A stretch of 63,934 nucleotides of DNA, the filler included, from Craspedostauros australis (Eukaryota), in assembly GCA_030167865.1 (NCBI GenBank). It is 9 parts of 9 records of this genome, joined end to end, with 100 filler letters (N's around TTAATTAATTAA, not from the genome) between each part and the next. Parts side by side here need not be neighbours in the genome. Positions count along the whole stretch, not along the records: positions 20,078 to 47,438 come from JALAGF010000898.1; 8 more parts are not named here. One strand, given 5' to 3'. Made by a program: the position numbers and the translations under genes. The notes beneath the pieces were generated by a model that was not told the origin of the DNA, did no database searches, and saw only the letters and a list, made by a program, of their open reading frames with translations. Positions 761 to 61,758 of this stretch are shown in pieces. Position 1 is the stretch's first letter, and each line of letters begins with the position of its first letter.

Positions 761-1184
761 TCTCACAAACAACGAAGAAACACAACAAATGACAAAAAGC
801 ACTTTGGGGTCGTACTAGTCGTAAACTGAAGTATTTGATGCACTTGCCGGGTATCCCAGCGGAGAGGTCATCGTCGCCATCACCATCGACATCACCATCA
901 GCATCAACATCACCATCAACATCACCATCGACATCACCAACCCACAATCTGCAATCCACGATCCACGATCCACGGCTCACAATACATACACTGATCATTC
1001 TCATCAGAGGATCATCAGCACAAGTCGTACACCAGTAAGAAGGAGATCGCTGCCATCCATACTAACGCAATACGAACGCAATACTCACGCAATAGTCTCT
1101 CTAGACTATTATTCTACATCATATTCTATTCTATTATATTCTATTATACAATACTTCGCACGACGAGAACGAGCGTTGGTGGCC

Positions 1185-3818
1185 ATGGCAAAGTCCAGAG
1201 CAAAGAGAAAGGCGAAGAAGCCAAAAGCTGCAACAGCGCAGAATTCAAATGCGGATCAGCATGGCAGCACGAACGACAATGGTGCGACTCGCAACCCACG
1301 CAGCCAAGAGCTTGAGGAGGAGGTGGCTGCACTGAAAATGCAGTTGGAACAGGCTCAACAGACGATTCGTGCGCTGCAAGGTTCGGGAGCGAATGGGATG
1401 GGGCCAGCCAACACAATCAGCAACGGCAGTACCAACGACGGCACCAACGGCAGTACCAACGACGGCATCAACGACGACAACGATGAGACAGAGACGGATT
1501 GGTCGAACCATGTTGCGGTGGATCTAAGTGAGCAACCGATGGCGAACAGTCCATCGATGCTGACTTCCATCTCACCGCCCGCCGTGTTTCATCGACCGCT
1601 CGGAAAGAAGGGCTACCTCTTCAAATGGCAGGACAGGAGCATTGGCTGGGGTGGCACCAAGTGGGCGCTCAGATTTGTGGCCCTGGAGGATGGAAAGGTG
1701 GCGTACTTTGGCTCCCACCACGATCCGCTCACATCGCCACCGCGGTACGTGCTCAATCTCAAGGGCTGCGCCGTGCGAGACGAGGGTTGGAAGAGGAATC
1801 GCCGTCACAAGAGCACCAGCCGCGGTCGCACGAATTCGGGTGATGGATCCGACGAACCTCCCTTGGATGAAAGCGGAGCCTACTTCTTCGTCTTTTCGAT
1901 CTACCTGCGTCAAGACCAAGACGTCTCGCAGCGCAACGCAGGGCGTGCTTTGCATCCAGGACAGGCAGGCAAGGGCAGTTCCATCCTGTCGCAGAGCAGC
2001 TCCGACAGCAGCAGCGCCAAGTCCACGACGGTCGCATTCGAAGATGTCGTGCCCTTGCTGCGCTTCTCGACGCCATCCTTGGCCGAGAAGCAACGATGGA
2101 TCCAGCTCATTTCAGAAACGTGCGCCTATTGCGAGACGGAAGCGTACCTGCAGGATGAGGCCGATCGCTACGACGAATCGCGTTTCCGCCGCGAGCAGCA
2201 AATGAAGATGGCCCTGGCGATGCCCGAAGCCAAGACCGACGGCACCTTGCCACCGCTCTACTTCGCCCCGGCATCCACGCGCCGCTTTCCGAAACGCCAT
2301 CCAAGCCACAGCAGGCTGCCATTGGATGCAAAGCTCTTTCGTTCCAAGACGGCAGACCCCAACGCGGACAAGGTGGAATCCAGATCCATCAAGGGCTACC
2401 CACCCTCGAAGCCCATGCATCGCAGCGCAGCGCCGTCGTACCTCAGCCTGGAGGCGCCACCTCAGAACTACCGCGGCTTGTTCAATTTGGGCATCATCAT
2501 CTTGGTCGTCAGCAACTTCCGATTGATGCTCGGAACCGTGCGTCGACATGGATTCGTCATCACGAAATTGCTGCGCCATCTCCAGGACTTCCCCACGGTG
2601 AGGTACAACCGTGAGGCCTGGCAAGAATTCCCAATCCTCTCCGCCCTCATGCTGCAGGTCTTGTTCGTCATCACAGCATTCGGTCTGGAACGCTTGCTCA
2701 GCCGGCGGCGGTTGCCCAATTCGTTCGGCATGATGCTGCACTACGCCAACGCGTACAGCGCCTTGCTCTTGCCCACGGTCATTGTGTGGAAGTTCATCGA
2801 GTCGCCACCCGTGGGTTCCGCCGTCCTCATGCATGCCACCATCACGTGGATGAAGCTGGTCTCGTACGCGCACGCCAACGACGACTATCGAGCATCCGCC
2901 CAGAGCATGGACAAGGACGCTGTCAACCCGCACAATGCTACGCTTGCGCTGATCGAGAATCTGGAGGATGCCGACCTGGCGCTGTCGTACCCGCAGAACG
3001 TGACACTCAACAACCTGCTGTACTTCTGGTGCGCCCCGACACTGACGTACCAGATCGCGTTTCCCAAGTACCCCAAGATCCGCCTGTGGAAGATCTTGGC
3101 AATTCTATTGCGAATGGGAATAGTGACGGTCATGTTCACCTTCCTGGCAGCCCAGTTCGTGTCCCCGACGTTGCAGAGCCTGGTGACCGAGCTGGACGCC
3201 ACTCACGGACGGCTGACGATGAGTCTCATGGCGGAATACTGGCTTCGCCTTTCCATCGCCAACACCTACCTTTGGCTGCTCATGTTCTACGCCTACTTCC
3301 ATCTCTACCTCAACCTCATCGCGGAAGTGCTGCGATTTGGCGACCGCGTCTTCTACAAGGACTGGTGGAACTCCTCCGACGTCTCGTCGTACTGGAGGCT
3401 GTGGAACATGCCCGTCCACTTCTGGCTGATCCGCCACGTGTATTTCCCGTGCATCCGATGCAACATGCCCAAGGTCATGGCAACCTTCGTCGTCTTTCTG
3501 GTCTCCGCCGTGATGCACGAAGTGCTCGTGAGCGTCCCCTTCCACATGATTCGTCCGTGGAGCTTCTTGGGCATGATGATGCAGCTGCCGTTGGTGGCCG
3601 TCACCAAATTCTTGTGCAGCAAGTTTCCCGGCAGCTCGATTGGCAACCTGATCTTTTGGATCTCATTCTGCGTGGTGGGACAGCCGATGGCGATTCTGCT
3701 GTACACCGTCGACTATCAGTACGAGAAACAGTTCGCCAATGTTGTGGATGCGTGCAGTGCTGCCGCAGCTGGCGGCGGCGTGGATGGTGTGGTCGGTCGA
3801 TCCTGTGTCGCATCGTGA
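1185..3818 (+). CDS. DGAT1: Diacylglycerol O-acyltransferase 1 (MBOAT family) with N-terminal pleckstrin-homology domain
   Basis: PH-like KKGYLFKW...WALRFVALE...EKQRWIQLI segment. MBOAT/DGAT1 motifs NYRGLFNL, APTLTYQ, FGDRVFYKDWWN, YWRLWNMPVH and SAVMHE (catalytic His). First ATG at 1185; single open frame. Confidence 0.95.
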   Translation: MAKSRAKRKAKKPKAATAQNSNADQHGSTNDNGATRNPRSQELEEEVAALKMQLEQAQQTIRALQGSGANGMGPANTISNGSTNDGTNGSTNDGINDDNDETETDWSNHVAVDLSEQPMANSPSMLTSISPPAVFHRPLGKKGYLFKWQDRSIGWGGTKWALRFVALEDGKVAYFGSHHDPLTSPPRYVLNLKGCAVRDEGWKRNRRHKSTSRGRTNSGDGSDEPPLDESGAYFFVFSIYLRQDQDVSQRNAGRALHPGQAGKGSSILSQSSSDSSSAKSTTVAFEDVVPLLRFSTPSLAEKQRWIQLISETCAYCETEAYLQDEADRYDESRFRREQQMKMALAMPEAKTDGTLPPLYFAPASTRRFPKRHPSHSRLPLDAKLFRSKTADPNADKVESRSIKGYPPSKPMHRSAAPSYLSLEAPPQNYRGLFNLGIIILVVSNFRLMLGTVRRHGFVITKLLRHLQDFPTVRYNREAWQEFPILSALMLQVLFVITAFGLERLLSRRRLPNSFGMMLHYANAYSALLLPTVIVWKFIESPPVGSAVLMHATITWMKLVSYAHANDDYRASAQSMDKDAVNPHNATLALIENLEDADLALSYPQNVTLNNLLYFWCAPTLTYQIAFPKYPKIRLWKILAILLRMGIVTVMFTFLAAQFVSPTLQSLVTELDATHGRLTMSLMAEYWLRLSIANTYLWLLMFYAYFHLYLNLIAEVLRFGDRVFYKDWWNSSDVSSYWRLWNMPVHFWLIRHVYFPCIRCNMPKVMATFVVFLVSAVMHEVLVSVPFHMIRPWSFLGMMMQLPLVAVTKFLCSKFPGSSIGNLIFWISFCVVGQPMAILLYTVDYQYEKQFANVVDACSAAAAGGGVDGVVGRSCVAS

Positions 3819-4268
3819 GGCAACCAAGTGTTGGCGTGGGCTCTTGCCGCAGAGTGGTGGAGTAACGTGCTGACTTGCATGGATAACGGCATACAATAGA
3901 GCAATAGTGCGACCTACTCATGCTGTGATGGGAATGCATACTCTCTAATATCATACAATACAATGCAAACTGCGATCTGAACTATGATACCATTAGATCC
4001 CATACCATATCATACCATACAGTAGCACTGCACTGTCCTCCGCAGCGATACTCCTCTCTCGAGAGATCCAACAGTAGAGGTGATGAACATGGATGTATGC
4101 ATACACTTATGCATGGATAGGTCGTAGACATGTAAAATATATTGGGGGTACAATTGAGCAGATGATGCTTTTGGTTATCAACTTAATGTCCTGTCTTGCG
4201 TCGCCATCGAGTTGACCATAGTACCATACTCTGCTCTACGACACTCTGCAGTAGAAGCCGCAGAAAAC

Positions 4269-6203
4269 TCACAGCAGGTGTTCCAGATCGAGCTCCATGA
4301 CGGATGCGGGGTACTGGATGTCAAAGTTCTTGAGGACGTTGGGATGGAGGATGCCGAAGGTTCCCAGACGAATCTTGGACTCGGTGCCTGGCTTTGTGAG
4401 AAGAATTGTGGCAGCCCGACCCGGGAAGTACATGCCGAATTCGTGCGATCCTTCCGGCAGCGGGTTGATGGTGTACTCCCAGCCTTCCTTGCTGACTCGG
4501 TACTGCTCGTCCTCGGCCTGCGCCTTCTTTGCGGAGGTGGCGACGTAGGCCGCCTCGGGACCGACCTCCGTGAGCGTCATGATGCGATCGACGAGGCCGT
4601 GCAGAATCTCGAATCCGGAGGTGGGTCCCGCGTACACGGCGGCGACCTTGCGCGAGTTCTTGGCACCGACACGAGTTTCGGTGGCGACGTGGTCCGCATC
4701 AGCCACGACGACGTCGCTGACTTCGAAGAGCTTGAATCCGTTGGTGAAGGAGGCCGACTTGTTGTGCTGCAGGGTTTTGAGAAGGCCTGGCAGCAGGGTG
4801 GTTCGGACGACCTGGTACTCTACGTTGGCAGGGTTGGAGAGGGAGACGGTGGTCTCCATCTTGATGGGGCATTGCAGGGCGGTGAAGTTGTCGTGGATGC
4901 TGCAGAGACCGTGGGTGAGGACCTCTGTGTATCCGGCGCGCGCAATTTCGTCGCGCAGGAGATCTCCGAGCTGGTTGAGGGGGAACTCACCGCCGACCGT
5001 GTGCGTTTGCGGCACCTTCTTGACGATGTTGTTGTATCCGAAGGCAATGCCGATGTCTTCGGCGATGTCGACGGGGTGCAGGATGTCTGACCTCGTGGGC
5101 GGGACGGTGACCTCCAGGACGGTGTCATTGTCCAGGAGCGTGGCCGGTCCCAGCTGGACCTTGTTGCAGAGGGTCTGCATCTCGGCGGCCGTGATGTCGA
5201 TTCCGATGAGGGAGTTGCAGAAGTCGACCTTGGCCTTCTCGCGTCTGGTGAATAGCTTTGGCGTGACGTAGGAATCGGCGATGGATCCATCCGCTGCCTC
5301 GTAGTTGACCTTGACCGGGTGGACGGTGAATGGCTGCGCGCAGTACTCGGAGAACATGGTGACGACGGTGTCCAGCACGATGTTGGCCTTGGTGAGGTCC
5401 GTGGCCGTGCACTCGATGAAGACGTTCTTGGTTGCCAGGGTGAGCTTGGAGTGCGCGCCGTTGATGATGGGCGGCAGAGACATGACGCGCTCGTCCGCAT
5501 CGAGGACGACCGGGTAGAGCGGCGAGTCCTTGATGATGGCGACGTAGGGCTTGAGGTGCTTGACCTCCGGCTGGGTCTCGTAGAATTCGAGGAGGTCGTT
5601 GGCCTGGAAGCTGCCCTTGTCATCGGGAGTGAGGGGCACGAAGTTGATGTCTGCGGGAGCGCGGGCGTCGTAGACGAAGGGTCCCTTGACGGTGTCCATG
5701 TCGTGCGTCCCGATGGCCACCAGGGTGCGCAGACGGCAGAGGTTGCGGTGCAGCTGGTCCTGCAGGTCGATGAAGGAGTCGTACCGCTCCTGCGTGAAGG
5801 TGACGTCCTTGAGGATGGCGGCCACGCAGAACGGGCGGATGGTGTCGGCGTTGGCCTTCTTGACCGTGAGGGTGACCTCCGCCGCGTCGTCCGAGACGAT
5901 GCTGTAGGTGGGGGCCTCCTGGTCGCCCAGGAAGATCCTGAGCGCGCGGCTGAGGCCCTCCACGCACAGCAGATCGTATCGGTTGGCGGGGACGTCGATC
6001 TTGTAGAGCACGGCAGCGGACAGCGACTCCAGCTGCTGCTTGCTCAGCTTCACGGTGGCGGACTTCTGGGCCTCCTCGCGCTCCGATGTCACCTCGTCCA
6101 GCTCCACTCCGAATTCGAAGCACAGCTCGTCGAAGGCCTCATCGCTGTATGTACGTCCCAGGTGGGTGTACAGGATGTCGCGTTCTACGGAGAGGGTTGG
6201 CAT
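4269..6203 (-). CDS. FARSB: Phenylalanyl-tRNA synthetase beta subunit (cytosolic type)
   Basis: FDELCFEFGVELDE, IDVPANRYDLLCVEG, LQDQLHRNLCRLRTLVAIGTHD, VPPTRSDILHPVDIAED, RTTLLPGLLKTL; intronless 644-aa ORF. Confidence 0.97.
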   Translation of the reverse strand: MPTLSVERDILYTHLGRTYSDEAFDELCFEFGVELDEVTSEREEAQKSATVKLSKQQLESLSAAVLYKIDVPANRYDLLCVEGLSRALRIFLGDQEAPTYSIVSDDAAEVTLTVKKANADTIRPFCVAAILKDVTFTQERYDSFIDLQDQLHRNLCRLRTLVAIGTHDMDTVKGPFVYDARAPADINFVPLTPDDKGSFQANDLLEFYETQPEVKHLKPYVAIIKDSPLYPVVLDADERVMSLPPIINGAHSKLTLATKNVFIECTATDLTKANIVLDTVVTMFSEYCAQPFTVHPVKVNYEAADGSIADSYVTPKLFTRREKAKVDFCNSLIGIDITAAEMQTLCNKVQLGPATLLDNDTVLEVTVPPTRSDILHPVDIAEDIGIAFGYNNIVKKVPQTHTVGGEFPLNQLGDLLRDEIARAGYTEVLTHGLCSIHDNFTALQCPIKMETTVSLSNPANVEYQVVRTTLLPGLLKTLQHNKSASFTNGFKLFEVSDVVVADADHVATETRVGAKNSRKVAAVYAGPTSGFEILHGLVDRIMTLTEVGPEAAYVATSAKKAQAEDEQYRVSKEGWEYTINPLPEGSHEFGMYFPGRAATILLTKPGTESKIRLGTFGILHPNVLKNFDIQYPASVMELDLEHLL

Positions 6204-7289
6204 TATTCCTTTTGTGTTCTGCTACTGTTGTTGTTGTTGTTGTTTGCTACTGCAGGTTCTTGTGGGATTTATCGGAGGGAGATCCTGCTGTCGTTGTCGC
6301 TGTCGATTGCTCGTTGCTGATCAAACGAGTACTGATGGACTCTGCTGGTGTTGGTGGCGATGTTCTGTTCGATGGACGATCGATTGAGGTCGTTCGTTCG
6401 ATTGCTTCTCCGACAAAGGCTGTCGTCGATCCTTGATCCTTGATCGCAGTCTCTCTCTTGATGTCGGTGAGGCTCCGGTTGTGGATCTTCTTGTTGGTTG
6501 TTCTGTCGCTGGTTCTTCCTGTGGTGGATCATCTCGTTTTTGTACCTTGTGTTTGCGTGCATGTTTGGGTTTGGACGTCCGCATCCACGCGTCACCGTGT
6601 TGTTGCGCGCACTTGTTTGTGCGGTTCTGAACGATTCAACAGCACATGGGCCAATTCGTGTAAATCAGGTTGAGCAATGGACTCGCGTGATCCCTTTCGT
6701 TTTGGCGCCAAACCGACAACAGAAATCGGGTTCTCTCCCTCCTTCTACCGAATCCACACACGAGCATCCACACACAAACATCCACACGCGCGAATATTTG
6801 TAATCTACGAGTGCATCCCTGCGGTACCGACACTTACCTGCAACACACTCCTTCTATCAAGCTCGTGGACACTAAGAGATTCGCATCCCACACCTACAAC
6901 TAAAACGGTTGCGCTAACTATGCGAATGGAAGAGGTGCAGGTTCCGCCAAACAACAGGATGATGTTCTCACAAGTAATCGCGCGGAACATGAAACCCAAC
7001 AGAGCACGTGCAGCAGGAAATGAATTGAATTGAAGTGACTCAACCTATATCTGCTTTATTCTGCTTGCATTCGCTTGTGTTACCGCTGCCGCTGTTATTC
7101 TTGTTCGTAATCGAAGTCCAAAGAGTGACGAGCTTGGTTGTTGCATCCCCGTCTCCATTCGATCTCCAAGTGCGTGGTCGAACACCTTCGCGTTTCAGCT
7201 GCTCTCATCATTTTCACATGATCTTGCGAAGAAGAAGAACGACGACGACGACGACAGCGGATGCCCGTGCATGTCGTTGCAGTCATCGC

Positions 7290-7583
7290 TTATTCGCCCT
7301 CGACCATGACGTGGAAGCTCTTGGCACCCTGCTGGCGCTTCTCGAAGTATGGTTGGTACTCTTCGCATGCCATGAACTCAAGGCCCTTTTCCTTGCTTGG
7401 CCACTCGATCATGGCGTAGAGCTGTGGTCGCTCCCTTGGCTCGCCTTCGATCTGCTCGTGGTTGGGGGTGCGGGCCCTGTACACACCGCCGTACTTGGCG
7501 ACGATGGCGGGGACATCCTTGAAGTAGGATGCCATCAATACAGCGTCCGTGACGGTGATTTCGAGGATGGAGTAGTAAGGCAT
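7290..7583 (-). CDS. DUF1330-family small protein, copy 1
   Basis: 97 aa; Y..DVPAIVAKYGGVY, IEGE, IEWPS.E....F....EYQP pattern typical of DUF1330 (dimeric alpha-beta barrel). Confidence 0.85.
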   Translation of the reverse strand: MPYYSILEITVTDAVLMASYFKDVPAIVAKYGGVYRARTPNHEQIEGEPRERPQLYAMIEWPSKEKGLEFMACEEYQPYFEKRQQGAKSFHVMVEGE

Positions 7584-8784
7584 GGTGGATATTGCTGTTG
7601 CTGTTGCTTTAGTTGTGCTGTTGTTTGCGTTTGATCGCGATTTGGATTTTATGAGAGTTGTTGGAAGTCCTCAGGGGCAACGACAACTTGTTGCGATTGC
7701 CGAGGACCTTGGGTGTTTTGATCGGTCAGAAAGACCAAGTATAGCGCTGAGACTACAATACTCTGCGGGGTTGCGCAACGCTCTTTGGCATTTATTGGAC
7801 ACCCATTCCCGCAGAATCTCTGGTTTCTCACATGAACGAACCAGAACGACGGATTTATTGGAAGTAGAAGTATAGCGGAGTATAAGTAGCGTCCTTCCAC
7901 ATGACAACTTGAAGAGCTGCATTCATGTGGCGTTGAATCGCGTTGCTTTCCTGATCCAGACCAAAAGATACGATGATCCTTCCTCTCTTCCGGGTCGCTT
8001 CCGGCTGTGTCCAAGCCAAGTGTTGTGGAATTGTGTTTGGGACACTCTTCATTTTTAGCGGACAGTCAAGCCAGTGCAGAGCCGAGCAGAACGAAGTCGT
8101 GTTGATGCCAACGTCCGTTACTGGACAGACTTAGTATCTGCACCGAACCAAGATCAAGCATATGCGGTTGGTCCAGAGACATCGATTCTGTGTGATGTCT
8201 GGTGCGAAACGATTCGCACGCACCAAAGTCTGATGCTGGAATATAAATGAACAATCAACAGTGAACCATCAACGATGAACAACAAGGAGTGATTCCTCTC
8301 TCTCCCCCTTCCACTGGCTGATGAGCACGTACGCATCGATGCGTGATGCAACTGCTCCTCTGCTTGCGAAGAATCCAACATTCCTACGAACCATACAAAC
8401 TCTAATTTATGGCATCCCACGACAATGAGAATGCGAGTTGCCATTACGCCAAACATGGAGAAAAGTTGTCTGTCTGATTCTACCCGCGGCAATTACATTG
8501 CGAGCATACCGACGTTGCTGCTGTTTCGATGGCAACTTGCGGAATGAGGAAATGAACTGTTGTGCCCATGTATCTGTCTGAGCATCGCGTGCACTTGCAG
8601 TTAGGTATCGCTTTCCAACTCCATTCGATTTGACGGTTTCCGTATGGCACCACGCTGCCGCAGAGACCACGAAGTCTCCACCGAATGTGACCGTCAGCAT
8701 TTCCATTTCCTCTCCCCATTTCACAAGGCGTTACCAAGAAGGACGACGGCAACGACTGCCTGCATGGTTGGTCGCAGCCGGACT

Positions 8785-32832: not shown

Positions 32833-34128
32833 ATGATCGCAACGAAACTGGCATGCCTGCTGCTGACCATCCTCATGGTCGACGTGCTCAGCATCAGTAC
32901 AGATGGCAGATACCTCAGATCAGAGATGGAGACATCGAGGCAGCTCGGCAAGGACAAGGGCAGCAAAGACAAAGACAAGAAAGACAAGGATAGCAAGGAC
33001 AAGGATAGCAAAGACAAAGACAAGAAAGACAAGGATAGCAAGGGCAAGGATAGCAAAGACAAAGACAAGAAAGACAAGGATAGTAAGGACAAGGACAGCA
33101 AAGACAAAGACAACAAAGACAAGGATGGGGGTGATAACCAGGACGACACAGACAGGAGCGATGGAGTGAAGTACCTGTACCAGCCGTACGAAAAGGGCTA
33201 CATCTCCCCAGCCGGAGTGTACGAATCAAGAAAGTGTATCATCATGGGAGAAGACGCCGCGACCTGCGACGCTGGATGTGGTGGATGCTGCCGGTACGTT
33301 ACACACGAGCTGGGAGCTACGAACTTTTGGAATCGTGCGGTGTTCTGTCTTGTGCCACCGATATGTAGTGGAATTGCTGATGCCATTGCCGATGCAATAG
33401 AAGGAAACCATGAGAGTTGTTCACACTGGATCATAGCCACCGTGCGGGCACAGCAGAACCTTGAAGATGCGTTGTCGAACATGTACATCAATCCATCATG
33501 GAAAGCAACAATCAATTCACTCACTCACTTCCTCACTCACTCACCCACTTGCTCTCGCTAACACAACAGCATCTACGTCGGACCCTTCTGCGACGCTGAG
33601 AATAAGTATGACCACATGCCATGCGCATGCAGCGGAAAGACCATCCCACGATCATTCTGGGATGGCACCAACAACATCATCGATGTCATTGTCGAATCTC
33701 CTAGTTCAACGCCCTCTGCGTCGCCCACCGAATCAACCAGTGCGCCAACGAGTGCTCCAACATCAGAACCAACGGCGGCACCAACGACGACGGACCGTTC
33801 TGGCAGCGACGGCCTCAACATCCCGGTGAATGTTACAAGCGAACCAACTGCCCAGCCAACACTAGAACCAACGTCAGAACCAACCGAGGAACCGGTGGTC
33901 ACCTGCAAGAGAATCTACGGAACCTTCGAAACTAACGGGATCATCGAGGAGAAGCCGTGCATCGATATGGGAGACAACCCAGCGTACGAGGATTGCGCAG
34001 AGAACTGCGGCGGATGCTGTCGAGTGTACAACGACCCATGGTGCGACAAGAACAACGGGATCACGCACATGCCATGCGCCTGCAGTCCCTACACGAAGCC
34101 ATTAGATTCGTGGTACGAGTGCTCTTAG
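32833..34128 (+). CDS. Secreted protein with RXL sites, KD-rich tract, two 8-Cys modules and a PT-rich linker; exons 32833-33293 and 33570-34128
   Basis: Signal peptide MIATKLACLLLTILMVDVLS. GTACGT donor at 33294, CTAAC branch site and CAG acceptor ending 33569. Splicing restores CGGCCRIYVGPFCD...HMPCACS, matching the second module CGGCCRVYNDPWCD...HMPCACS. Confidence 0.85.
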
Positions 34129-34638
34129 AGTAGAGACATTTGGAGAGTGGAAGCAAGCCTTGGCATCACGCAGTCGGCGCTGAGCCAAGCGAGAACTGAA
34201 CCTCTTGGGGCGTCGGCAGTACTTGGACTCGTCCAATGCGATGAGTACTCGGCGGATGCGCAGTCGTTCAGCGCGGGTAGAGAATGAATAGAGCAGAGAA
34301 CGACGAAGACGGCTAATTGTAGGAAAATATACATGATACAACAACAGAACCATACTGTCATTGTCAGCCGTTCGTGTTCTGGGCTGGTGGAGCGTTCACA
34401 CAGCACAGATCCGTTGACCTGAAACCATACGTAACGTGAGGAAAGTACTTGTTAAAAAAGCAGGCAGCAGCAGATAACATATGGTTGACAAGGAAAGTGG
34501 CGGATTGAATGCTTGTCTATCCATGTTTTAAAGATCACCGATATTCGACTGCTGTGTTAAGTCGTCGTTGTTGCATCCCCATTCTGCATCGTCACAAAAT
34601 GAACGCCCCGCCTGTGCGATTGCAATCACACAAGCCAC

Positions 34639-36643
34639 TTAGGCATCATGACGGAAGTTTCGGACGGTCTCGATGAAGAAGTGTGCGTTCTCCTCTGGCG
34701 TGCAGGCCTCGATTCCGTGTCCCAAGTTCATGACGTGACCGGTTGGTCCGGCTTTTCTCAAGATCTCCTCTGCACGTTCCTTGATGATGTCGTGGTTGGA
34801 CATCAGGATGCTTGGATCGAGATTGCCCTGGACACCGCCGACACCCTCGAGTCCGGCTGCCTTGCGTCCGTTGGTAACGCGTTCGCGTCCGACCTCCATA
34901 TCGACGGTCCAGTCCAGCGAGACGACGTCGACACCGGTGCCCGCCATCTTCTCGATGAGTGCACCGGAGTGCTTGATGTAAATCACGGTCGGGATATCTG
35001 GGTACTTGGCCTTGACCTGCGTGGGTGTGTGGAGTCGCACGTTGATGATGAAAATGATGTTGAGTGAGATTGCACAGATTGGGGTTAATTCATGAACGGA
35101 AATCAAGTAGCAGGTGCTGTGTCATGTTGCTCAACAACGGCAGTGCCTGGAGCCACCACCATCACAGACAACACGCATGCAGAACAGACAGCACATGTGC
35201 GAGCCGAAGAACGTACCTTGTCCAGGATCTGCTTTTGGTATGGAGCGGCGAATTCATCGTAATCACGTGGCGACAAGTGACCGGCCCAGGAATCGAAGAT
35301 CTGGATCAATTGGGCACCATTCTCGACCTGGTACAGCGCGTACTCTCCGATGCTGTCGGCAAGATTCTGGAGGATGGAATGCAAGAGCTTTGGCTCGTTG
35401 AAGGCCATCTTCTTGATCTCGAGGTATTCCTTGGAGGTCTTACCCTCGACGAGGTAGGTGGCCAAGGTGTACGGGCATCCGACGAAGCCCAAGACGGCTG
35501 TCTCTGGTCCGACCTCGTCACGCAGGATCTTGAGCGTCTCGGCGACGAATGGTGCCGCGCTGGATGGATCGATTGGCCTCATCTACAATTCATGTTGAAG
35601 AAGATGGAATGGGATGGATCCAAGGTGAGATTGCAAATGTGTGCATGTACGTTCGGTGCCAAAATGCACAAGCAGCAATGCAGATTTAGGAACACGGTGG
35701 AGCAGTTCACGAGAAAGGGTGCAGATGCAAAATGAAGTTCGAGGAATGCAATGGAGCAGTCAAGAATTCAAGTCAAGTCGATCGAAGCGGGGAAATCAAG
35801 CAAAGCAGATGGTGAGATCTGAAGCATTCAAGAAACGAAAAGCGGAACAATCCCAATTCTCGTCCACCGAGTTTGATTCTTCCGCCGCAATGCCCAAGTA
35901 CCATGACGACAGATGTGTGATAGCACACGGCATCAACGTCATGGTGTGTGTCTTGCATTTGCAGCAATGTCGATGCTCTTGTCCTTTCCACGCTGTATAG
36001 TGCCATGCCCGATCCTGTGCTCGAACTTCTTGCATGAATTTTACTGCCAGAGTGCAATCTTCCAATCTCCCGGGATTTTCGTGAATGTCTTCTGAAGCAG
36101 GAAATGAGATCCACGCGATAAAGCGATCCCGCAATAGCGATGCGTGCGGCACGGACAACTTACTTTCTTGAGATCCTCGTAGTTGCGGATCGGTTCCATG
36201 ATGGGCCCGAGCTTTTCATCGATGGAGAACTCGCATCCCATCCCCGGCAACGGCGTGAGGATATCGGAGAAGAGGATGCATCCATCCGTCTTGTAGTTCC
36301 TCCACGGCTGCAGAGAGACCTCGACGGCCACCTCCGGAATTTCGCTGCGCTGACGGAACGTGGGCCATTTCTTGCAGAGATCGCGGTATTCCTGAATGTG
36401 ACGTCCGGCCTGTCGCATCATCCAGACGGGCGTGCGCTCGACCTTTTCACCGCGCGCCGCACGGATGAGAAGCGGGGCATCGGTGTTGGACGATGACGAT
36501 GCGGCATCTCCGCTCGTGGCCTCGTCGACGACGCTCTGCACGACGGTCTTGGTGCGCGCGGCGTGGGTCTGGACGTTGAAGGCCGTGGCGGCGTGCTGGT
36601 GGACGGCGAGCACGAGGGCGGCGGCGGCGATTGACAACTTCAT
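34639..36643 (-). CDS. hemE: Plastid-targeted uroporphyrinogen III decarboxylase; exons 36643-36164, 35582-35217, 35016-34639 (407 aa)
   Basis: [53 protein letters not shown] motifs; two phase-0 GT-AG introns; bipartite presequence [22 protein letters not shown]. Confidence 0.95.
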
Positions 36644-45017: not shown

Positions 45018-46050
45018 AGATCTTCCACAGAGAGCATCATAGATCGATTGATCGATGCCAAGAGGCATGGGGTGGATAAAGAACAGCGCTGCAGACGAAT
45101 TCACTGCACTGGCAGGGGAAAGAGGGTTATGCTGAAATATGTTATACTACAATACACAAATAATACAAAGTCCTATAATACCACACGCTACTCAGCACAA
45201 TGCTCCTACCATCGTGCGACGAGTCCGGTCTCTTCCGAGCCTCGTCAAGTCGTCATTGATGCACATCCTGGAAACCAAGCACGACCGAGATGAGCGTTCC
45301 ATTTTCTAGGCACCATAGTCATGACAAGCAAGCGTGTCCCTTATTCTGAAACTATGTTCCCCAAAACAGAAACAACAAATGGTACCCTACATATAGTACC
45401 CAATGCGCACAGAGGGCCCATGCTTTCGCGGACTGTGAGTTGAGTGCCGCGGATGCTCACATTTCACAACACGTCACCCAAACGTCATTTGTTCTACTCG
45501 TTCATCGTTCCCGCTAAACGTACACTCAAACATGTGCGCTCATAAACACTCGTAGAACCATACATCTCACTTCAGACCTATAATACAACCTTCCACGCAA
45601 GGGCGAGGTCCAACGATGGGAAGTTTGTTGTGCCAATTTGTCCACGGATCATCAGGTGGAGCCATTGCTTTTTCTCTGTTGCCGGCGCTGTTGTCGTGCA
45701 CTTGTATCACCCCCAACAACAGATCCACTCGTCGAGTACGAGTGAAGCGGAGTACCGACATTAGGCGCAGAAAACTCATTGTAGTTTTGGCGGTTTGGAT
45801 CACTGCCGTTGATTGCGGCGACAGAACGGAATAATGGTCGATCATGCGCGGAAGCAACCATCCATCGATTGGCCATCAATCGGACTTGCTTGACACATCC
45901 GCCACCAACGAAAGTTGCCTTCTTCGTTCACCCCAGGCCACATACTCCCCACGAGCATGATCAGATCACGCATCAACTCCACGCATTCCTCACACAATCT
46001 CACAAATCGAACAAAGAAAACACCAATATCACACGATCTGAATTGCAACG

Positions 46051-47438
46051 ATGAACACAACAACAACGACAGACACGTTGATGGACTTTGACTTGGCAAT
46101 GGCATTGCGAGACAACATCGCAGATGCGATCGTCATCTCATTGGCACTTGCGGTGGGATGGGTTGTCGTCGTCTTGAGCAGACCACCCGCCAAGGATGCC
46201 CCTGCGAAGAGTCCTGCTGGGATCATGGAGTCCGTCAAGATGTTTGGATCATCCGAAGCACCATGGTGGCATCTCCAGCTGCAAGAATCCTTGGGATCGT
46301 CTATCTTCCAACACAACCTCCCGATCCGTGGTGGCACGTACGTGCTCTGCGCTGCGAAAGATCAGCGCGAGGTTATGCTTGACAAGACGACTGACAAGCC
46401 GTTGCAACTCTATTCGAATTTCGACAGTATCATGGGACGCAAACAAATGATTTCGCGCTCAACATTCAGCCCTCTCTTCAAGAAGATGAGGAAGAGCGTC
46501 TCACACTCATTTTCCTCTTCGGATATCAACCGGATGAAATCCATCTGCACGAAGTATGTCGAAGAATGGGAAACAGAGTTCCTCGAGAAGATAGTGGATA
46601 CTGATGCCACATTCGATCCATCTTTCGAACTAACAGGGATCGTATTCAAGACCATCATGGAGGCGGCCTTCGAATACAAGTCGACTTCCGAAGACTTCGA
46701 CTCGTTCGCGTCCAACTTTGAGGTGGCTGCCATTGAACTCACTTTCCGTCAAGCTACTAATCCCTTGCGGAAGGTATTCGGTTTTCTGATCCCAGAAGTA
46801 TGGGCAGCGCACAAATGCAGCTCCCACTTGAGGGGCTTCGTGAAGACGGTCTTGGAAGCTTACCGCAAGAATCCCAACAAGTCGGAGAGCACCACTGTGA
46901 TCAAAGTGGTTGAGTCCAATCCGTACGATATGTCCGATGAAGAGAAGGTTGCGGAGCTACTTATTTGGCTCATTGGTGGTTTCGAGACGACGGGATACAC
47001 ACTCGCCAGCACCATTACGTTGCTTGCAAAACACCCGAAGGAGATGAAAGACCTGCAGCAATCGTTGTTGCAGGGTGATCCGACACAATCCAAGGATCAT
47101 CTCAAGCGTGTGATCACCGAATCTCAACGAGTGATCCCTGTTGCTGCAATGGGGTCGGCTCGCTTCACCGGCCGTGATTTCATCTTTTTCGATGAACCCT
47201 CCAACCGCAAGGTCAAGATTCCGAAAGGCGCCTCTGTGTTTCTTCCACAGATCACGGCCCACCGAGACGGGATGGTGTTCGAAGATGCTGGGCAGTTCAA
47301 ACCTGGTCGATGGAAGAATCCGACCAAGGAAATGACACACAGCATCCTGGGATTCGCCTTGGGCAACCGCGACTGTCCTGGTCGATCGATGGCAATCGCT
47401 GAGCTCTACTTGATATTGTCAAGAATCTTGTCCAAGTA
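46051..47438 (+). CDS. Cytochrome P450 (3' end truncated by contig break)
   Basis: N-terminal membrane anchor, I-helix GGFETT, K-helix ESQR, FKPGRW, heme ligand loop FALGNRDCPG. Confidence 0.93.
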
Positions 47439-47538
47439 NNNNNNNNNNNNNNNNNNNNNNNNNNNNNNNNNNNNNNNNNNNNTTAATTAATTAANNNNNN
47501 NNNNNNNNNNNNNNNNNNNNNNNNNNNNNNNNNNNNNN
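47439..47538. other. Artificial contig-joining linker
   Basis: N-TTAATTAATTAA-N, 100 nt. Confidence 0.97.
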
Positions 47539-58167: not shown

Positions 58168-59904
58168 TTAACTTGCATCACCACGGCGTTGTCGTGCTGA
58201 CCTCCCACGGGTCCTCATCCCAGTAGTAGTCGGCTTTCTTCGTTCTTTCTCTTGGTCATCATGCTGGTGCTGTGATTGTTCGTCTCCTATTGCTTGTTCT
58301 GCCATTGTGAAATTATTCGTGGTTGCTTCCGCCGTTGTTGTGGGCACTGTTGCAACCTGCGGCGGCTGTTGGATGCTTCCTTCTGCTGTCTCTCCTCTTG
58401 CATCATCTTTTGGGACCGATTCGGTTGATGCCAAAGTTGCACTTGGCGATGGCATCCGGACTCCAGCTGTTTCGGCTCCTCTTTTTGATGCCGGTGATGG
58501 TGGTGATGGCAAGATCGCCACCTCCGTTTGGGCATCTGTTTGTGTTGTATGCTGCACACCGCCTGCCTGGGATGGCACGATCCATTGGGGTGATCCTGCT
58601 GTTGCCATCTCGTCTGGCCATGCCCTTATTCTTCCAATTTCTGAGACTTTCGAACTTCTGGTTGCTGGTGATTGTGGTGGTGTTGGCAAAATCGCCACCT
58701 CCGATTGGGCATCTGTTCCTGTTGTATGATGCACACNGCCTGCCTGGGCTGTTGGGATCTCTTGGGGCGATCCCACCACAGCAACCCCCTTTTGCTGTGC
58801 CTGTCCCCCTCCACTGTCTGAGCTTTCCACCAATACTCGTGCTGGTGATCTTGGTGGTGGCATTGCCAGTGTGTCTGTTTGTGTTCTGTGATGTGCATCG
58901 CCCGCCTGGGCTGGTAGGATCCGCACAAGTGATTCCACTACAGCAATCGCCTCTTCCTGTGCCCCTCCTCCTCCACTGTCTGAGCTTTCCACCAATGCTT
59001 GTGCTGGTGATCTTGGTGGTGGCATTGCCTGTGTGTCTGTTCGTGTTCTGTGATGTGCATCGCCCGCCTGGGCTGGTAGGATTTGTACAAGTGATCCTGC
59101 TCCTGCCATCCCCTCTTCCTGTGCCCGTCCTCCTCCACGGTCTGAGCCTTCCACCAATGCTCGTGTTGGTGATCTTGGTGGTGGCATTGCCTGCGTGTCT
59201 GTTCGTGTTCTGCGATGTGCATCGCTTGCCTGGGCTGGTAGAATCCGTTGGAGTGATGGGTGAATGCCACTGTTCTGGCTTCTTTCATCCATAGCAGTGC
59301 GACGGTGCGTGTACTGATCTGTACTGGCTCTCACACCTGCTGCTGCTGCTGCTGCTGGAGGTTCACCACCTGATCTGCTTGCCAACTGGCCGGCAGCATC
59401 AACCAACGCCGCATCGAGGGAGATATCCTCGTGCTCCCACCATCTGTTGGCATGTTGGGAGACGTCCACATTGACATTGGGGCCACCTGCCATGGGCACT
59501 TGTGTGAGAGCACGAGGCTTCTTTGTTGCTTGGCTTTCTTCAGTTGCATCTGCAAACAATCTGGGTCTCTCTTGCAAGGTGTCCTCCCGTGCCCGCTTTG
59601 CACGCTTTTCCTCCACCTTGAGAGCCAGCTCAGCCTCCATCATCTCAAGCGTTGCCCGTTTGATTTCAATACGATCTCGCATTATTTCGGTACTGTCTGT
59701 AAAAACTGACATGGTGTCGTCGGTGGCAGTCTGGGTTGCTGTCTGATGACTGATGGCAGAAACCGTGGGTGTGGCTTGTTGGCCATGCAGCCTTGGCTGC
59801 GTTGCTGATGGTAGTTGTCTGTTGTTGTTGTGGTGACTGTCCGCTGCTGGGGTGGGGCGACGACCTCCTAGGTGGATTGTGGGTTGGGGTGTTGATGGTG
59901 TCAT
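58168..59904 (-). CDS. Low-complexity ORF with ~54-aa tandem repeats (possibly repeat- or TE-derived, possibly decaying)
   Basis: Three near-identical 162-bp units (ILPAQAGDAH.RT.TDT.AMPPPRSP...) plus two diverged units; short coiled-coil upstream. Confidence 0.45.
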   Translation of the reverse strand: MTPSTPQPTIHLGGRRPTPAADSHHNNNRQLPSATQPRLHGQQATPTVSAISHQTATQTATDDTMSVFTDSTEIMRDRIEIKRATLEMMEAELALKVEEKRAKRAREDTLQERPRLFADATEESQATKKPRALTQVPMAGGPNVNVDVSQHANRWWEHEDISLDAALVDAAGQLASRSGGEPPAAAAAAGVRASTDQYTHRRTAMDERSQNSGIHPSLQRILPAQASDAHRRTRTDTQAMPPPRSPTRALVEGSDRGGGRAQEEGMAGAGSLVQILPAQAGDAHHRTRTDTQAMPPPRSPAQALVESSDSGGGGAQEEAIAVVESLVRILPAQAGDAHHRTQTDTLAMPPPRSPARVLVESSDSGGGQAQQKGVAVVGSPQEIPTAQAGXVHHTTGTDAQSEVAILPTPPQSPATRSSKVSEIGRIRAWPDEMATAGSPQWIVPSQAGGVQHTTQTDAQTEVAILPSPPSPASKRGAETAGVRMPSPSATLASTESVPKDDARGETAEGSIQQPPQVATVPTTTAEATTNNFTMAEQAIGDEQSQHQHDDQEKERRKPTTTGMRTRGRSARQRRGDAS

Positions 59905-59917
59905 GCTGTTGCCAGCC

Positions 59918-60017
59918 NNNNNNNNNNNNNNNNNNNNNNNNNNNNNNNNNNNNNNNNNNNNTTAATTAATTAANNNNNNNNNNNNNNNNNNNNNNNNNNN
60001 NNNNNNNNNNNNNNNNN
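59918..60017. other. Artificial contig-joining linker
   Basis: N-TTAATTAATTAA-N, 100 nt. Confidence 0.97.
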
Positions 60018-60750
60018 GATGCACTCACGATAACACTAGTTGTGGAGTTTTGGCCCCTTGTTGCCACTGGTTTGCTTGCTTTTGGGAGAATCGGCGATTG
60101 GATATTTAGAGCTATTGTGTGTTTGCTCTCGCTGATCCGTCTTCTACGTCACAGGGAACGTATTCCACGTCATGAAAAACGAGTCACAACAGAGGAAGAG
60201 ACATCGTGTGACTCTTCCTCCACAAGACAACATGATGACTGCACGCGGCAACAACAGAATGTGCCAGGCCAGGACAGCCAACAACACTCCACGTTGACCA
60301 GTCTCACAATGGAAACCAGCAACATCCAATCGTCTCNGAATACGACGAAGCGCATTGGCGATCTGTACGACGCAGACGACAGTGCTTCGCCAATCACCAC
60401 AACATCGTCTTCACCTCGGCTGCCAATCCTGTGAATGCTGCATGCACAGCTCAGCCAATCCACATTCTTGCCACTGTTGCTGTTTCCATTTTTTCTCCGA
60501 CAACATGCGTTGCGCACATGATCAACGTGGTACGGTATGCATCCTGCGCAACCGTGCAGCACGATCCTCTTGCAAGAACGCCAAGGCGCAAGGGACGACA
60601 TCAACACAACCAAAAGTACCGATCCAGCCACGAGTGTGAAGGAGCCTCGAAGCAAATACGAGCAATAGTAAACCGCTCGTCCAAATTCGAGAGGAAAGAA
60701 ACAGCATTCCAGCAAACCACAACCAAGCAAAGATCACGTGGAAACCGAAG

Positions 60751-61658
60751 ATGCTCAACTTCAAGGCAGCGATCATCACGGCGATCTTGCTTGCCGAATG
60801 CAAGACAATCGATGCCATCCTTCGCGGCTGTAGATTGGTTGACCCAACCAACGAACTTTATGTCGCGATGCAGGCAACCAGACTGCTGAAGGCCGACGGT
60901 GGTTTCATCCCTAAGAACTTCAAGGGTAACAAACAGACGGGAGCACCGTCCAACAATCCGAGCAGCAATCCCAGTGTGGCACCAACCAGTTTGCCTACCA
61001 GCTCTCCTACATTGGCACCAACTGCGTTGGCCAGAATAATGACAACAACACCGACTTCTACACCAACCTTGCCACCAACTGGGGCACCAACTTCAAGGCC
61101 AACTGGGCGGCCAGTTGCCTCACCGACCAGCAATCCAACCTTGAGGCCTACCTCATCACCGACCAATCAGCCAACAGGTGGAGCAACCAGCATGCCGACG
61201 CGAGATCCAACTTCCATGCCGACATTGGGGCCTACATCTGCATCAACTACCGCCTCGTTTGTATTTGATTCCAGCATCTCCGTGGCCTGCGAGCCAGATG
61301 TTGCGCCGCCATGCTTTCCGCCTGATGCATTCGACCCAAATGCCATCATCTGCAATCCATCCAAGACTTCGTGCCGCGAGGCCGTCACTGCTGTTCGAAG
61401 CACACCAGGATTGCAGAATTACTTCGCATGCGCTGGCCTCTTGACCAAGGGGGATGTGCGCAAGCTATTCAACCGATATGCATCCAACCCCTTGCTAGCT
61501 GAGGAGCTGACGCTATTGTCCGTCGCCGGCACCACTCTGCTCACAGCTCTTGGTGGTGAGGACATCTACTACGCGTGCCAGGACGCCGGGGCTCCATGCT
61601 GTGCAGAGGAGTATCACTGTACCAGCGCCGACGGTTACAGTTTCATGACCATTGCCAC
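60751..61658 (+). CDS. Secreted PT-repeat (mucin-like) protein with Cys-rich C-terminal domain, truncated
   Basis: Signal peptide MLNFKAAIITAILLAECKT, LRG and RLL motifs, many xPT/xPS tetrapeptides, then a Cys-containing domain. Confidence 0.75.
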
Positions 61659-61758
61659 NNNNNNNNNNNNNNNNNNNNNNNNNNNNNNNNNNNNNNNNNN
61701 NNTTAATTAATTAANNNNNNNNNNNNNNNNNNNNNNNNNNNNNNNNNNNNNNNNNNNN
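61659..61758. other. Artificial contig-joining linker
   Basis: N-TTAATTAATTAA-N, 100 nt. Confidence 0.97.

What the first reader, a model, noticed from the sequence alone, without database searches (positions are those of the whole stretch)
32833..33150. Silaffin-like architecture: signal peptide, RXL sites, then a zwitterionic KDKDS/KxxK tract
Seen: after the signal peptide come RYL and RQL, followed immediately by ~60 residues of K/D pentamers (KDKDK/KDKDS, 15-bp units in a 45-bp higher-order repeat) containing many KxxK motifs. Established: diatom silaffin and silacidin precursors are processed at RXL, and KxxK lysines of silaffins carry polyamine or methyl modifications, with phosphoserines supplying negative charge. 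Inference: here Asp supplies an encoded negative charge, giving a self-neutralising polyampholyte that could act in silica deposition or in adhesive mucilage. This would be a candidate new biomineral/adhesion protein type.
Basis: partly seen in the sequence, partly recalled or inferred. Interest (0 to 1): 0.8.

Follow-up and report, generated by a model that had tools for sequence, protein, structure and literature searches.

The report
Secreted diatom lysine-aspartate, cysteine-domain protein
A diatom gene encodes a probably secreted cell-wall or cell-surface protein in which a recently expanded, charge-balanced lysine/aspartate repeat sits in front of two copies of an unclassified cysteine-rich domain; it resembles silica-shell proteins in layout but fails the published sequence criteria for a silaffin.

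Summary
The gene has two exons (intron 33294-33569, inferred) and encodes 339 aa: signal peptide, RYL/RQL propeptide, a 61-aa K27/D22/S7 tract, an 8-Cys domain, a Pro/Thr/Ser stalk and a second 8-Cys domain.

The tract is charge-balanced and strictly alternating. Its silaffin-like motifs are no more frequent than its composition predicts (KxxK 14 vs 11.1 in shuffles; pentalysine regex 3 vs 1.2). It fails the serine criterion and the K[SG][SG]K criterion, and no second RXL would release it as a peptide.

The conserved part is the Cys domain. It has no Pfam, PDB or fold match and occurs in three own-genome paralogs and five outside proteins, one of them from Nitzschia. None of the 6 N-terminally complete homologs has a long K/D tract. 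Several have short Lys tags at that position, and sister genes carry long K/G/D tracts.

Best reading: an RXL-processed modular wall or surface glycoprotein whose Lys tag was recently expanded. It is a new variant of a known kind, not a new biomineral class. A silica-precipitating role stays possible (about 0.12).

The parts
32833..32892 (+). Predicted signal peptide, aa 1-~20 (cleavage site inferred)
   Evidence: Hydropathy maximum at the N-terminus only; passes my heuristic; SignalP not available
32893..32946 (+). Putative propeptide with RYL(R) (32908-32919) and RQL (32938-32946)
   Evidence: RXL precedes domain A in 4 of 6 N-terminally complete homologs and RRY in the other 2. Cleavage is inferred from literature
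32947..33129 (+). K/D tract, aa 39-99: four 45-bp copies of three 15-bp units; K27 D22 S7 G4 N1; strictly alternating charge
   Evidence: (kappa 0.003 vs shuffle mean 0.103). Three contig pieces of run X1 lie on it without mismatch
33130..33165 (+). Acidic flank, aa 100-111, that brings aa 39-111 to net +1
33166..33293 (+). 8-Cys domain A, copy 1, exon-1 part (Cys 135, 145, 149, 152, 153)
   Evidence: 43% identity over 35 aa to copy 2
33294..33569 (+). Intron, GT..AG, 276 nt (inferred; no RNA contig bridges it)
   Evidence: Splicing restores a full domain, 48% identical to copy 2 over 56 aa, E 8e-21. In-frame codon score -0.03 vs 0.13-0.66 for exon parts
33570..33636 (+). 8-Cys domain A, copy 1, exon-2 part (Cys 161, 172, 174)
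33697..33894 (+). Pro/Thr/Ser stalk, aa 197-262 (61% P+T+S), likely O-glycosylated (inferred)
   Evidence: Pfam PT repeat PF04886, E 2.5e-6, 27.3 bits vs cutoff 26.2
33895..34128 (+). 8-Cys domain A, copy 2, plus an extra Cys pair (266, 338) and the stop codon
   Evidence: No Pfam. Homologs P0005-P0010, L124, L126, L127. AF2 pLDDT 73.8. No fold match
34129..34322 (+). Probable 3' UTR, covered by a contig continuing from the coding end
   Evidence: Run X1 record 5 spans 34044-34322

Best explanation
A secreted, modular diatom cell-wall or cell-surface glycoprotein. Shown: the ORF, the module order, the tract composition and a Cys domain conserved across diatom proteins. Inferred: (1) ER entry by the signal peptide; (2) removal of the propeptide after RQL, so that the mature 301-aa protein starts with the K/D tract, which stays attached because no second RXL follows; (3) the two disulfide-bonded 8-Cys domains, held apart by an O-glycosylated PTS stalk, do the conserved job of binding or cross-linking partners in the organic wall matrix; (4) the tract is a recent 45-bp tandem expansion of the short Lys tag that family members often carry after the Arg site, and acts as a disordered, hydrated, pentalysine-like tag that sorts or retains the protein at the frustule. 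It does not act as a free silica-precipitating peptide.
For: The module order is conserved: signal peptide, Arg site, variable low-complexity slot, domain A, PT stalk in L124, L126, L127, P0009 and P0010. The slot holds short Lys tags in L126 (canonical KSGK), L127 and P0009, an N/G tract in P0008, and no Lys in L124 or P0010. Genes sharing domain B with L126/L127 carry 140- and 147-aa K/G/D tracts with 14 and 8 K[SG][SG]K straight after the Arg site. The pentalysine regex matches 3 times here and in only 2 of 151 sampled gene starts, this gene being the only one with a signal peptide; it is reported in 29% of silica-associated proteins vs 1.5% of background. Signal peptide + RXL + KXXK + PT repeats is a described class. 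The repeat copies are 94% alike, so the array is young. The gene is covered by contigs of a run that holds spliced RNA.
Against: There are no localisation, processing or proteomic data. The pentalysine matches are expected from composition (P>=1 in 62% of shuffles), and the regex also hits 3 of 5 unrelated K/D-run proteins (L134, L138, L139) with no evident signal peptide. All tested targeting clusters seen in the papers are K/S/G-based, not Asp-rich. RXL enrichment after signal peptides was not significant in my small sample (5 of 16 vs 21 of 134, P=0.16). The binding role of domain A is pure inference, with no fold or family match. The intron is not bridged by RNA.
Confidence: 0.45

Rival explanations
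1. The protein is a secreted Cys-domain/PTS protein, and the K/D tract is dispensable filler produced by slippage and unequal crossing-over in a slot that tolerates any low-complexity sequence.
For: The slot content differs among all homologs (0-3 Lys in 10-48 aa). The 45-bp copies are 94% alike and share synonymous codon choices. KDKDKD-type runs are common in the genome (51 pattern hits vs 24 control) and sit in non-secreted proteins, including a P-type-ATPase-like ORF (label recalled). Three of the non-synonymous changes inside the array remove a charge.
Against: Copy differences lean synonymous (3 changes in 5 synonymous sites per copy vs 5 in 40 non-synonymous; tiny numbers, not all independent). 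Long Lys-rich tracts recur at the same position in L143. The pentamer design is unique in the genome.
Confidence: 0.22
2. The protein is an outer-surface or mucilage glycoprotein of CaFAP1-like layout. Its unmodified alternating K/D tract is a zwitterionic hydration brush (lubricating, non-fouling or solubilising), not an adhesive and not a silica factor.
For: Charge is near neutral with 80% charged residues and kappa 0.003, below all 500 shuffles. Alternating-charge EK peptides form hydration layers that resist protein binding, also in multivalent-ion solution (synthetic peptides, E rather than D). Alternating PTS and Cys domains describe the cell-surface glycoprotein CaFAP1. RXL also occurs in frustulins.
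Against: The protein lacks the domains named for the trail proteins in the passages read (CAA, vWA, DUF4215, GDPH; no such Pfam hit). A 61-aa tract at unknown density is a small brush. Any Lys or Ser modification would destroy the balance.
Confidence: 0.18
3. One reading: a silaffin-type protein whose Lys are polyamine- or methyl-modified and whose Asp replace phosphoserine, so that it self-assembles and drives silica deposition.
For: Signal peptide + RXL + Lys-rich tract; 3 pentalysine-regex matches; 7 Ser available for phosphorylation. Native silaffins are zwitterionic and self-assemble through an intrinsic anion source. Sister genes have canonical KGGK tracts with encoded acidic residues.
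Against: It fails the >=18% Ser criterion and the repeated K[SG][SG]K criterion (vs 80, 29). It has 18 Cys against one or none in silaffins. No closing RXL is present. The tract is absent from 6 of 6 complete homologs, and the motifs are not above chance.
Confidence: 0.12

Closest known systems
KXXK-motif / silaffin-like proteins with PT repeats of Thalassiosira pseudonana, e.g. TpSil1 (Brembu et al., PMC5501833; passages read)
   Same: Signal peptide, RXL site, Lys-rich tract with pentalysine-type spacing, PT repeats; TpSil1 also carries a chitin-binding domain
   Different: Their KXXK has X = S or G; here 13 of 14 contain Asp. Ser is low, and the folded module is an unclassified 8-Cys domain in two copies
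Silaffin precursor Sil1p (Cylindrotheca fusiformis) and silacidins (review PMC4557024; passages read)
   Same: RXL after the signal peptide; repetitive charged low-complexity sequence; zwitterionic end product
   Different: Those precursors are cut at RXL between repeats into Ser-rich peptides charged by phosphorylation. Here there is one uninterrupted tract, encoded Asp, no closing RXL and 18 Cys in the mature protein
CaFAP1, mucin-like cell-surface glycoprotein of Craspedostauros australis (as described in bioRxiv 10.1101/2023.03.06.531300; passages and section 16 read)
   Same: Secreted; alternating PTS-rich and Cys-rich domains; probably the same genus
   Different: CaFAP1 is 40% PTSG vs 31.6% here, and no K/D tract is mentioned in the passages read
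Soluble silicome proteins of motif clusters 2 and 5 (bioRxiv 10.1101/2021.09.18.460806; passages read)
   Same: Cluster 2 joins S/P/T-rich and Cys-rich regions; cluster 5 (TpSil3, CcSSP19) has acidic KxxK motifs
   Different: The quoted Cys motifs (IGxxSC, GxxACxxN) and Lys motifs (DAKA.K, KSSKA) differ from the motifs of this protein; sequences were not compared

Membership tests
Silaffin-like proteins (Scheffel screen, as quoted in PMC3478156) | ER signal peptide | tested here: met
   Hydropathy heuristic only; SignalP not available
Silaffin-like proteins (Scheffel screen, as quoted in PMC3478156) | >=10% Lys per 100 residues | tested here: met
   27 Lys in the best window
Silaffin-like proteins (Scheffel screen, as quoted in PMC3478156) | >=18% Ser per 100 residues | tested here: not met
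   Maximum 15 per 100 anywhere, 12 per 100 where Lys >=10 (criterion)
KXXK-motif proteins (Brembu, PMC5501833) | Repeated KXXK with X = S or G, 1-6 residues apart | tested here: not met
   One KGSK, 0 pairs
Silaffins | Pentalysine cluster, regex K..K..K.{1,2}K..K | tested here: inconclusive
   3 matches, but shuffles of the tract give mean 1.24, P>=3 = 0.16
Silaffins / silacidins / cingulins | RXL after the signal peptide | tested here: met
   RYL 26, RQL 36. Not specific: also in frustulins, silicanins and SAPs and in 5 of 16 other signal-peptide-like starts
Sil1p- and silacidin-type precursors | RXL closing each repeat, releasing peptides | tested here: not met
   Only two RXL in 339 aa, both before the tract
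Silaffins / silacidins / cingulins | One or no cysteine, random coil throughout (PMC5525289) | tested here: not met
   18 Cys after the signal peptide in two predicted folded domains (criterion)
Silaffins | Polyamine/methyl-Lys and phospho-Ser; silica embedding; silica precipitation | not testable with these tools
   Needs MS, localisation and an in vitro assay
Adhesive trail proteins (Trailins, GDPH proteins) | CAA, vWA, DUF4215 or GDPH domain | tested here: not met
   No such Pfam match in either exon product; no GDPH string in the translation
CaFAP1-type mucin-like surface glycoprotein | Homology of the Cys-rich domains | not testable with these tools
   Paper not held; preprint supplements closed
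Frustulins | Repeated acidic Cys-rich (ACR) domains | not tested
   No frustulin sequence or profile was compared. Domain A is acidic (pI 4.4-5.1), but none of its database hits was named a frustulin

The most novel reading that the evidence does not exclude
This diatom lineage encodes a zwitterion directly. An alternating Lys/Asp tract stands in for the phosphoserine-plus-polyamine zwitterion of silaffins and either templates silica without a kinase step or forms a natural non-fouling brush. It is anchored by an undescribed disulfide-rich fold that belongs to a shuffled module set (domain A, domain B, PT stalk, interchangeable Lys tracts) of diatom wall proteins.
Probability: 0.15. Interest if true: 0.72.

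Novelty: new variant of a known kind. Interest (0 to 1): 0.4.

Why it matters
Diatom wall proteins are poorly conserved and are usually found by K/S/G composition screens that would miss this gene. It offers a natural test of whether Asp can replace phosphoserine in pentalysine-type silica targeting, because close relatives carry K/G, K/G/D, N/G or no tract in the same slot. It also defines an 8-Cys domain without a Pfam, PDB or fold match, found in soluble and membrane-anchored diatom proteins. If the tract is a hydration brush, it would be a natural counterpart of engineered alternating-charge antifouling peptides. As it stands there is no functional evidence, and the layout is of a known type.

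Tried and rejected
Protein searches: the exon-2 product against longer proteins returned 4 hits whose aligned part and Pfam labels point to the PT repeat; they were dropped. The ESM Atlas gave no usable hit for domain A or for exon 1, which shows neither novelty nor absence. The CGGCCR DNA pattern matched 32 times vs 31 control; of the 30 loci returned only the two in this gene were domain A. The GCCR[IV]Y pattern gave 4 vs 4 control, two of them real. Metagenome scans: none for P0005; 2 loci for domain A, both judged chance after translation.

Structure: the first AF2 model from 4 rows was too poor to use (pLDDT 52). The second model (73.8) had no match in PDB Foldseek (0 at E<=0.001), VIA-align wide (0 of 48,161 at Z>=2) or BFVD (0 at E<=0.001); a missing match for a small disulfide-rich model does not show a new fold. 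The PDB sequence profile search found 0 hits.

RNA: no holder on record as RNA was listed. No contig covers or bridges 33075-33907, so the intron is unproven by reads, and contig depth cannot rank expression.

The unspliced 242-aa reading was rejected because it truncates domain A and its tail scores as non-coding. An oomycete-like RxLR-dEER effector reading (motif recalled) was considered for RYLR and dropped: the organism is a diatom and RXLR occurred in 2 of 17 signal-peptide-like starts.

Papers not held: Poulsen 2013 pentalysine paper and the CaFAP1 paper. Searches for a described Lys/Asp-rich biosilica repeat protein or polyampholyte silica peptide returned 0 papers. RXL + adhesive + diatom returned 1 listing, not read. 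Earlier scan notes had nothing near this place or like these sequences. No complex prediction was run, since no binding partner is claimed.

Full report
OBSERVATION. An ORF starts at 32833 with a hydrophobic N-terminus (best 19-residue hydropathy 2.17 at residue 1, nothing above 0.84 later). It contains RYL at aa 26-28 and RQL at aa 36-38, followed directly by a 61-aa tract of K27 D22 S7 G4 N1 with 14 KxxK. The DNA is a 15-bp unit (11.9 copies, 76% matches) inside a 45-bp unit (4.0 copies, 94%) at 32948-33126. Two degenerate patterns for the pentamers match only this locus in the own genome, with no control hits. The description is accurate. The tract alone is net +5; with the acidic flank (aa 39-111) it is 28 basic against 27 acidic. 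It is 80% charged and far more alternating than shuffles (kappa 0.003; 500 shuffles mean 0.103, minimum 0.016; measure recalled from the polyampholyte literature, my own implementation).

THE WHOLE GENE. A GT..AG intron at 33294-33569 gives a 339-aa product ending at 34128. Two lines support this intron. Splicing completes a Cys-rich domain that is 48% identical over 56 aa to a second copy at the C-terminus (E 8e-21). The in-frame intron sequence scores -0.03 on a codon model trained on 180 long ORFs, against 0.13-0.66 for exon parts. The order is signal peptide, propeptide, K/D tract, domain A, PTS stalk (aa 197-262, 61% P+T+S; Pfam PT repeat above its cutoff), domain A. There is no transmembrane segment. 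Each domain A has eight Cys spaced C-x9/11-C-x3-C-x2-CC-x7-C-x10-C-x-C; copy 2 has an extra pair. Run X1 is not on record as RNA, but one of its contigs skips a 200-base intron of the neighbouring gene, so it holds spliced RNA. Five of its seven laid records lie on this gene without internal mismatch, three on the tract and two on exon 2 and the 3' end. None bridges the intron, this is one study, and DNA cannot be excluded for these pieces.

RELATIVES. Domain A has no Pfam match in any of 10 aligned members, no PDB sequence match and, from an AF2 model of mean pLDDT 73.8 and pTM 0.58, no fold match. One hit among 1.84 billion representatives (P0005, E 4e-4) led to three own-genome paralogs. 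L124 is a 634-aa type I membrane protein. L126 and L127 are a tandem pair of soluble proteins with domain A, a PT stalk and a different Cys domain, B. A profile search then gave 6 proteins among 425 candidates: P0005; P0006, which is identical to L126 and carries a source label beginning 'Craspedostau'; P0009 from Nitzschia sp., with the same layout as L124; and three unnamed proteins. The organism is therefore most likely the raphid pennate diatom Craspedostauros, and the domain is shared at least with Nitzschia. Among the 6 N-terminally complete homologs, an RXL precedes domain A in 4 and RRY in 2. The slot between that site and the first Cys is 10-48 aa with 0-3 Lys, against 96 aa with 30 Lys here. 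It holds a short Lys/Gly/Asp tag in L126 (with a canonical KSGK), L127 and P0009, an Asn/Gly run in P0008, and no Lys in L124 and P0010; P0010 has a K/E/G stretch after domain A instead. P0005 and P0007 lack a recognisable N-terminus and were left out of this count. None of the homologs has two A domains, so no strict ortholog was seen. A search with domain B gave 6 own-genome matches. Two of them, on the contig of L126/L127, carry 140-aa and 147-aa tracts straight after the Arg site, with K28/D26/E12/G58 and K31/D14/E7/G55/Y13, and 14 and 8 K[SG][SG]K. They are linked to the window gene only through shared modules. They show that long, acid-interspersed Lys tracts after the processing site recur in this module set.

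HOW SPECIFIC ARE THE SILAFFIN SIGNS? KxxK: 14 observed, 11.1 +/- 1.9 in 20,000 shuffles of the tract (P=0.11). The pentalysine regex quoted in the silicome preprint: 3 observed, mean 1.24, P>=3 = 0.16, P>=1 = 0.62. That paper states that K..K is common in background proteomes, and that the regex occurs in 29% of silica-associated proteins against 1.5% of background. In my sample it occurred in 2 of 151 gene starts, and this gene was the only one with a signal peptide. The regex also matches 3 of 5 other K/D-run proteins that I inspected, none with an evident signal peptide. A (KD)4 pattern has 51 genome hits against 24 control. RXL: in 857,634 bases (80 fetched stretches from contigs that had surfaced, plus the window), RXL lay in residues 18-57 in 6 of 17 signal-peptide-like starts and 21 of 134 others. 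Without this gene that is 5 of 16 vs 21 of 134 (P=0.16). The heuristic set includes plastid-targeted and false starts. RXL is described from silaffins, silacidins, cingulins, frustulins, silicanins and SAPs. Formal criteria: Ser never reaches 18 per 100 residues (12 where Lys >=10; criterion quoted second-hand). There is one K[SG][SG]K and no pair (criterion). The mature part has 18 Cys, where silaffins, cingulins and silacidins have one or none. No RXL closes the tract. It is therefore not a silaffin by the tested definitions, though it may work partly like one.

MECHANISM. My best reading (0.45) is an RXL-processed, modular wall or surface glycoprotein. The signal peptide and propeptide are removed. 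The two disulfide-bonded domains on a glycosylated PTS stalk bind or cross-link the organic wall matrix. The K/D tract, a young expansion of the family's short post-RXL Lys tag, stays attached and serves as a disordered pentalysine-like sorting or retention tag. Architecture, composition and conservation are shown; processing, glycosylation, localisation and binding are inferred. The rivals are: dispensable slippage filler (0.22; copy differences are 3 synonymous to 5 non-synonymous, too few to decide); a zwitterionic hydration brush on a CaFAP1-like surface protein (0.18; alternating EK peptides are reported to resist adsorption, which argues against the tract being an adhesive); and a true silica-precipitating polyampholyte (0.12).

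KNOWN KIN AND NOVELTY. Signal peptide + RXL + KXXK + PT repeats is a described class in T. pseudonana. Acidic KxxK motifs are known from TpSil3 and CcSSP19, and alternating PTS/Cys domains from CaFAP1. I found no description of this K/D pentamer tract or of domain A in the searches made. Frustulin ACR domains were not compared. Verdict: new variant of a known kind, interest 0.40.

PAPERS SEEN. Keyword passages only: bioRxiv 10.1101/2021.09.18.460806, PMC9650480, PMC5501833, PMC4557024, PMC5525289, PMC5647440, PMC3478156, PMC8775195, PMC13148926, PMC4584364. Passages plus section 16: bioRxiv 10.1101/2023.03.06.531300 (23, 67, 100). Not seen: Poulsen 2013, Scheffel 2011 and the CaFAP1 paper, which are known here only as quoted by others. 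No supplements were read.

Noticed in passing
L143:1-2067 and L143:3845-5038 (G000:C4393), with L126, L127, L144, L145: Cluster of secreted modular genes. Two have long K/G/D(E) or K/G/Y/D tracts with 14 and 8 K[SG][SG]K after the Arg site, then PT repeats and Cys domain B. They are better silaffin/cingulin-like candidates by the KXXK criterion than the window gene.
   Followed up: partly
L124:25-1926 (-) and P0009: Type I membrane proteins with signal peptide, RXL, domain A, PT stalk, a second luminal domain containing another RXL, and a TM helix; similar layout in this genome and in Nitzschia.
   Followed up: partly
window 60640-61710 (+): Another signal peptide + RLL + PT-repeat + Cys-rich ORF, cut by an assembly gap.
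   Followed up: no
window 33294-33569: The intron is open in frame for 88 codons and holds a second donor-like site at 33483 that would give a 402-aa form with an insertion inside domain A; its codon score is non-coding.
   Followed up: partly
window about 34639-36640 (-): Neighbouring gene that looks like uroporphyrinogen decarboxylase with a plastid-type bipartite leader (labels recalled, not tested); a contig of run X1 skips its 200-base intron at 35014-35215.
   Followed up: no
L098 (+, from about 7823) and L050 (-, 4011-8559): Signal-peptide ORFs with RXL: one with two RHL followed by an N/Q/D-rich stretch (silicanin-like by recall), one of 1485 aa with RNL followed by K/S/G-rich sequence.
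   Followed up: no
window 58498-59247: 162-bp and 177-bp tandem repeats inside a minus-strand ORF (58168-59961) next to an assembly gap.
   Followed up: no
P0005: The JGI protein appears to carry retained intron sequence inside its second, domain-B-like Cys domain.
   Followed up: no
window 825-3818, 4269-6221, 46042-47490: ORFs resembling a PH-domain diacylglycerol acyltransferase, phenylalanyl-tRNA synthetase beta subunit and a cytochrome P450 (labels recalled from the translations, not tested).
   Followed up: no
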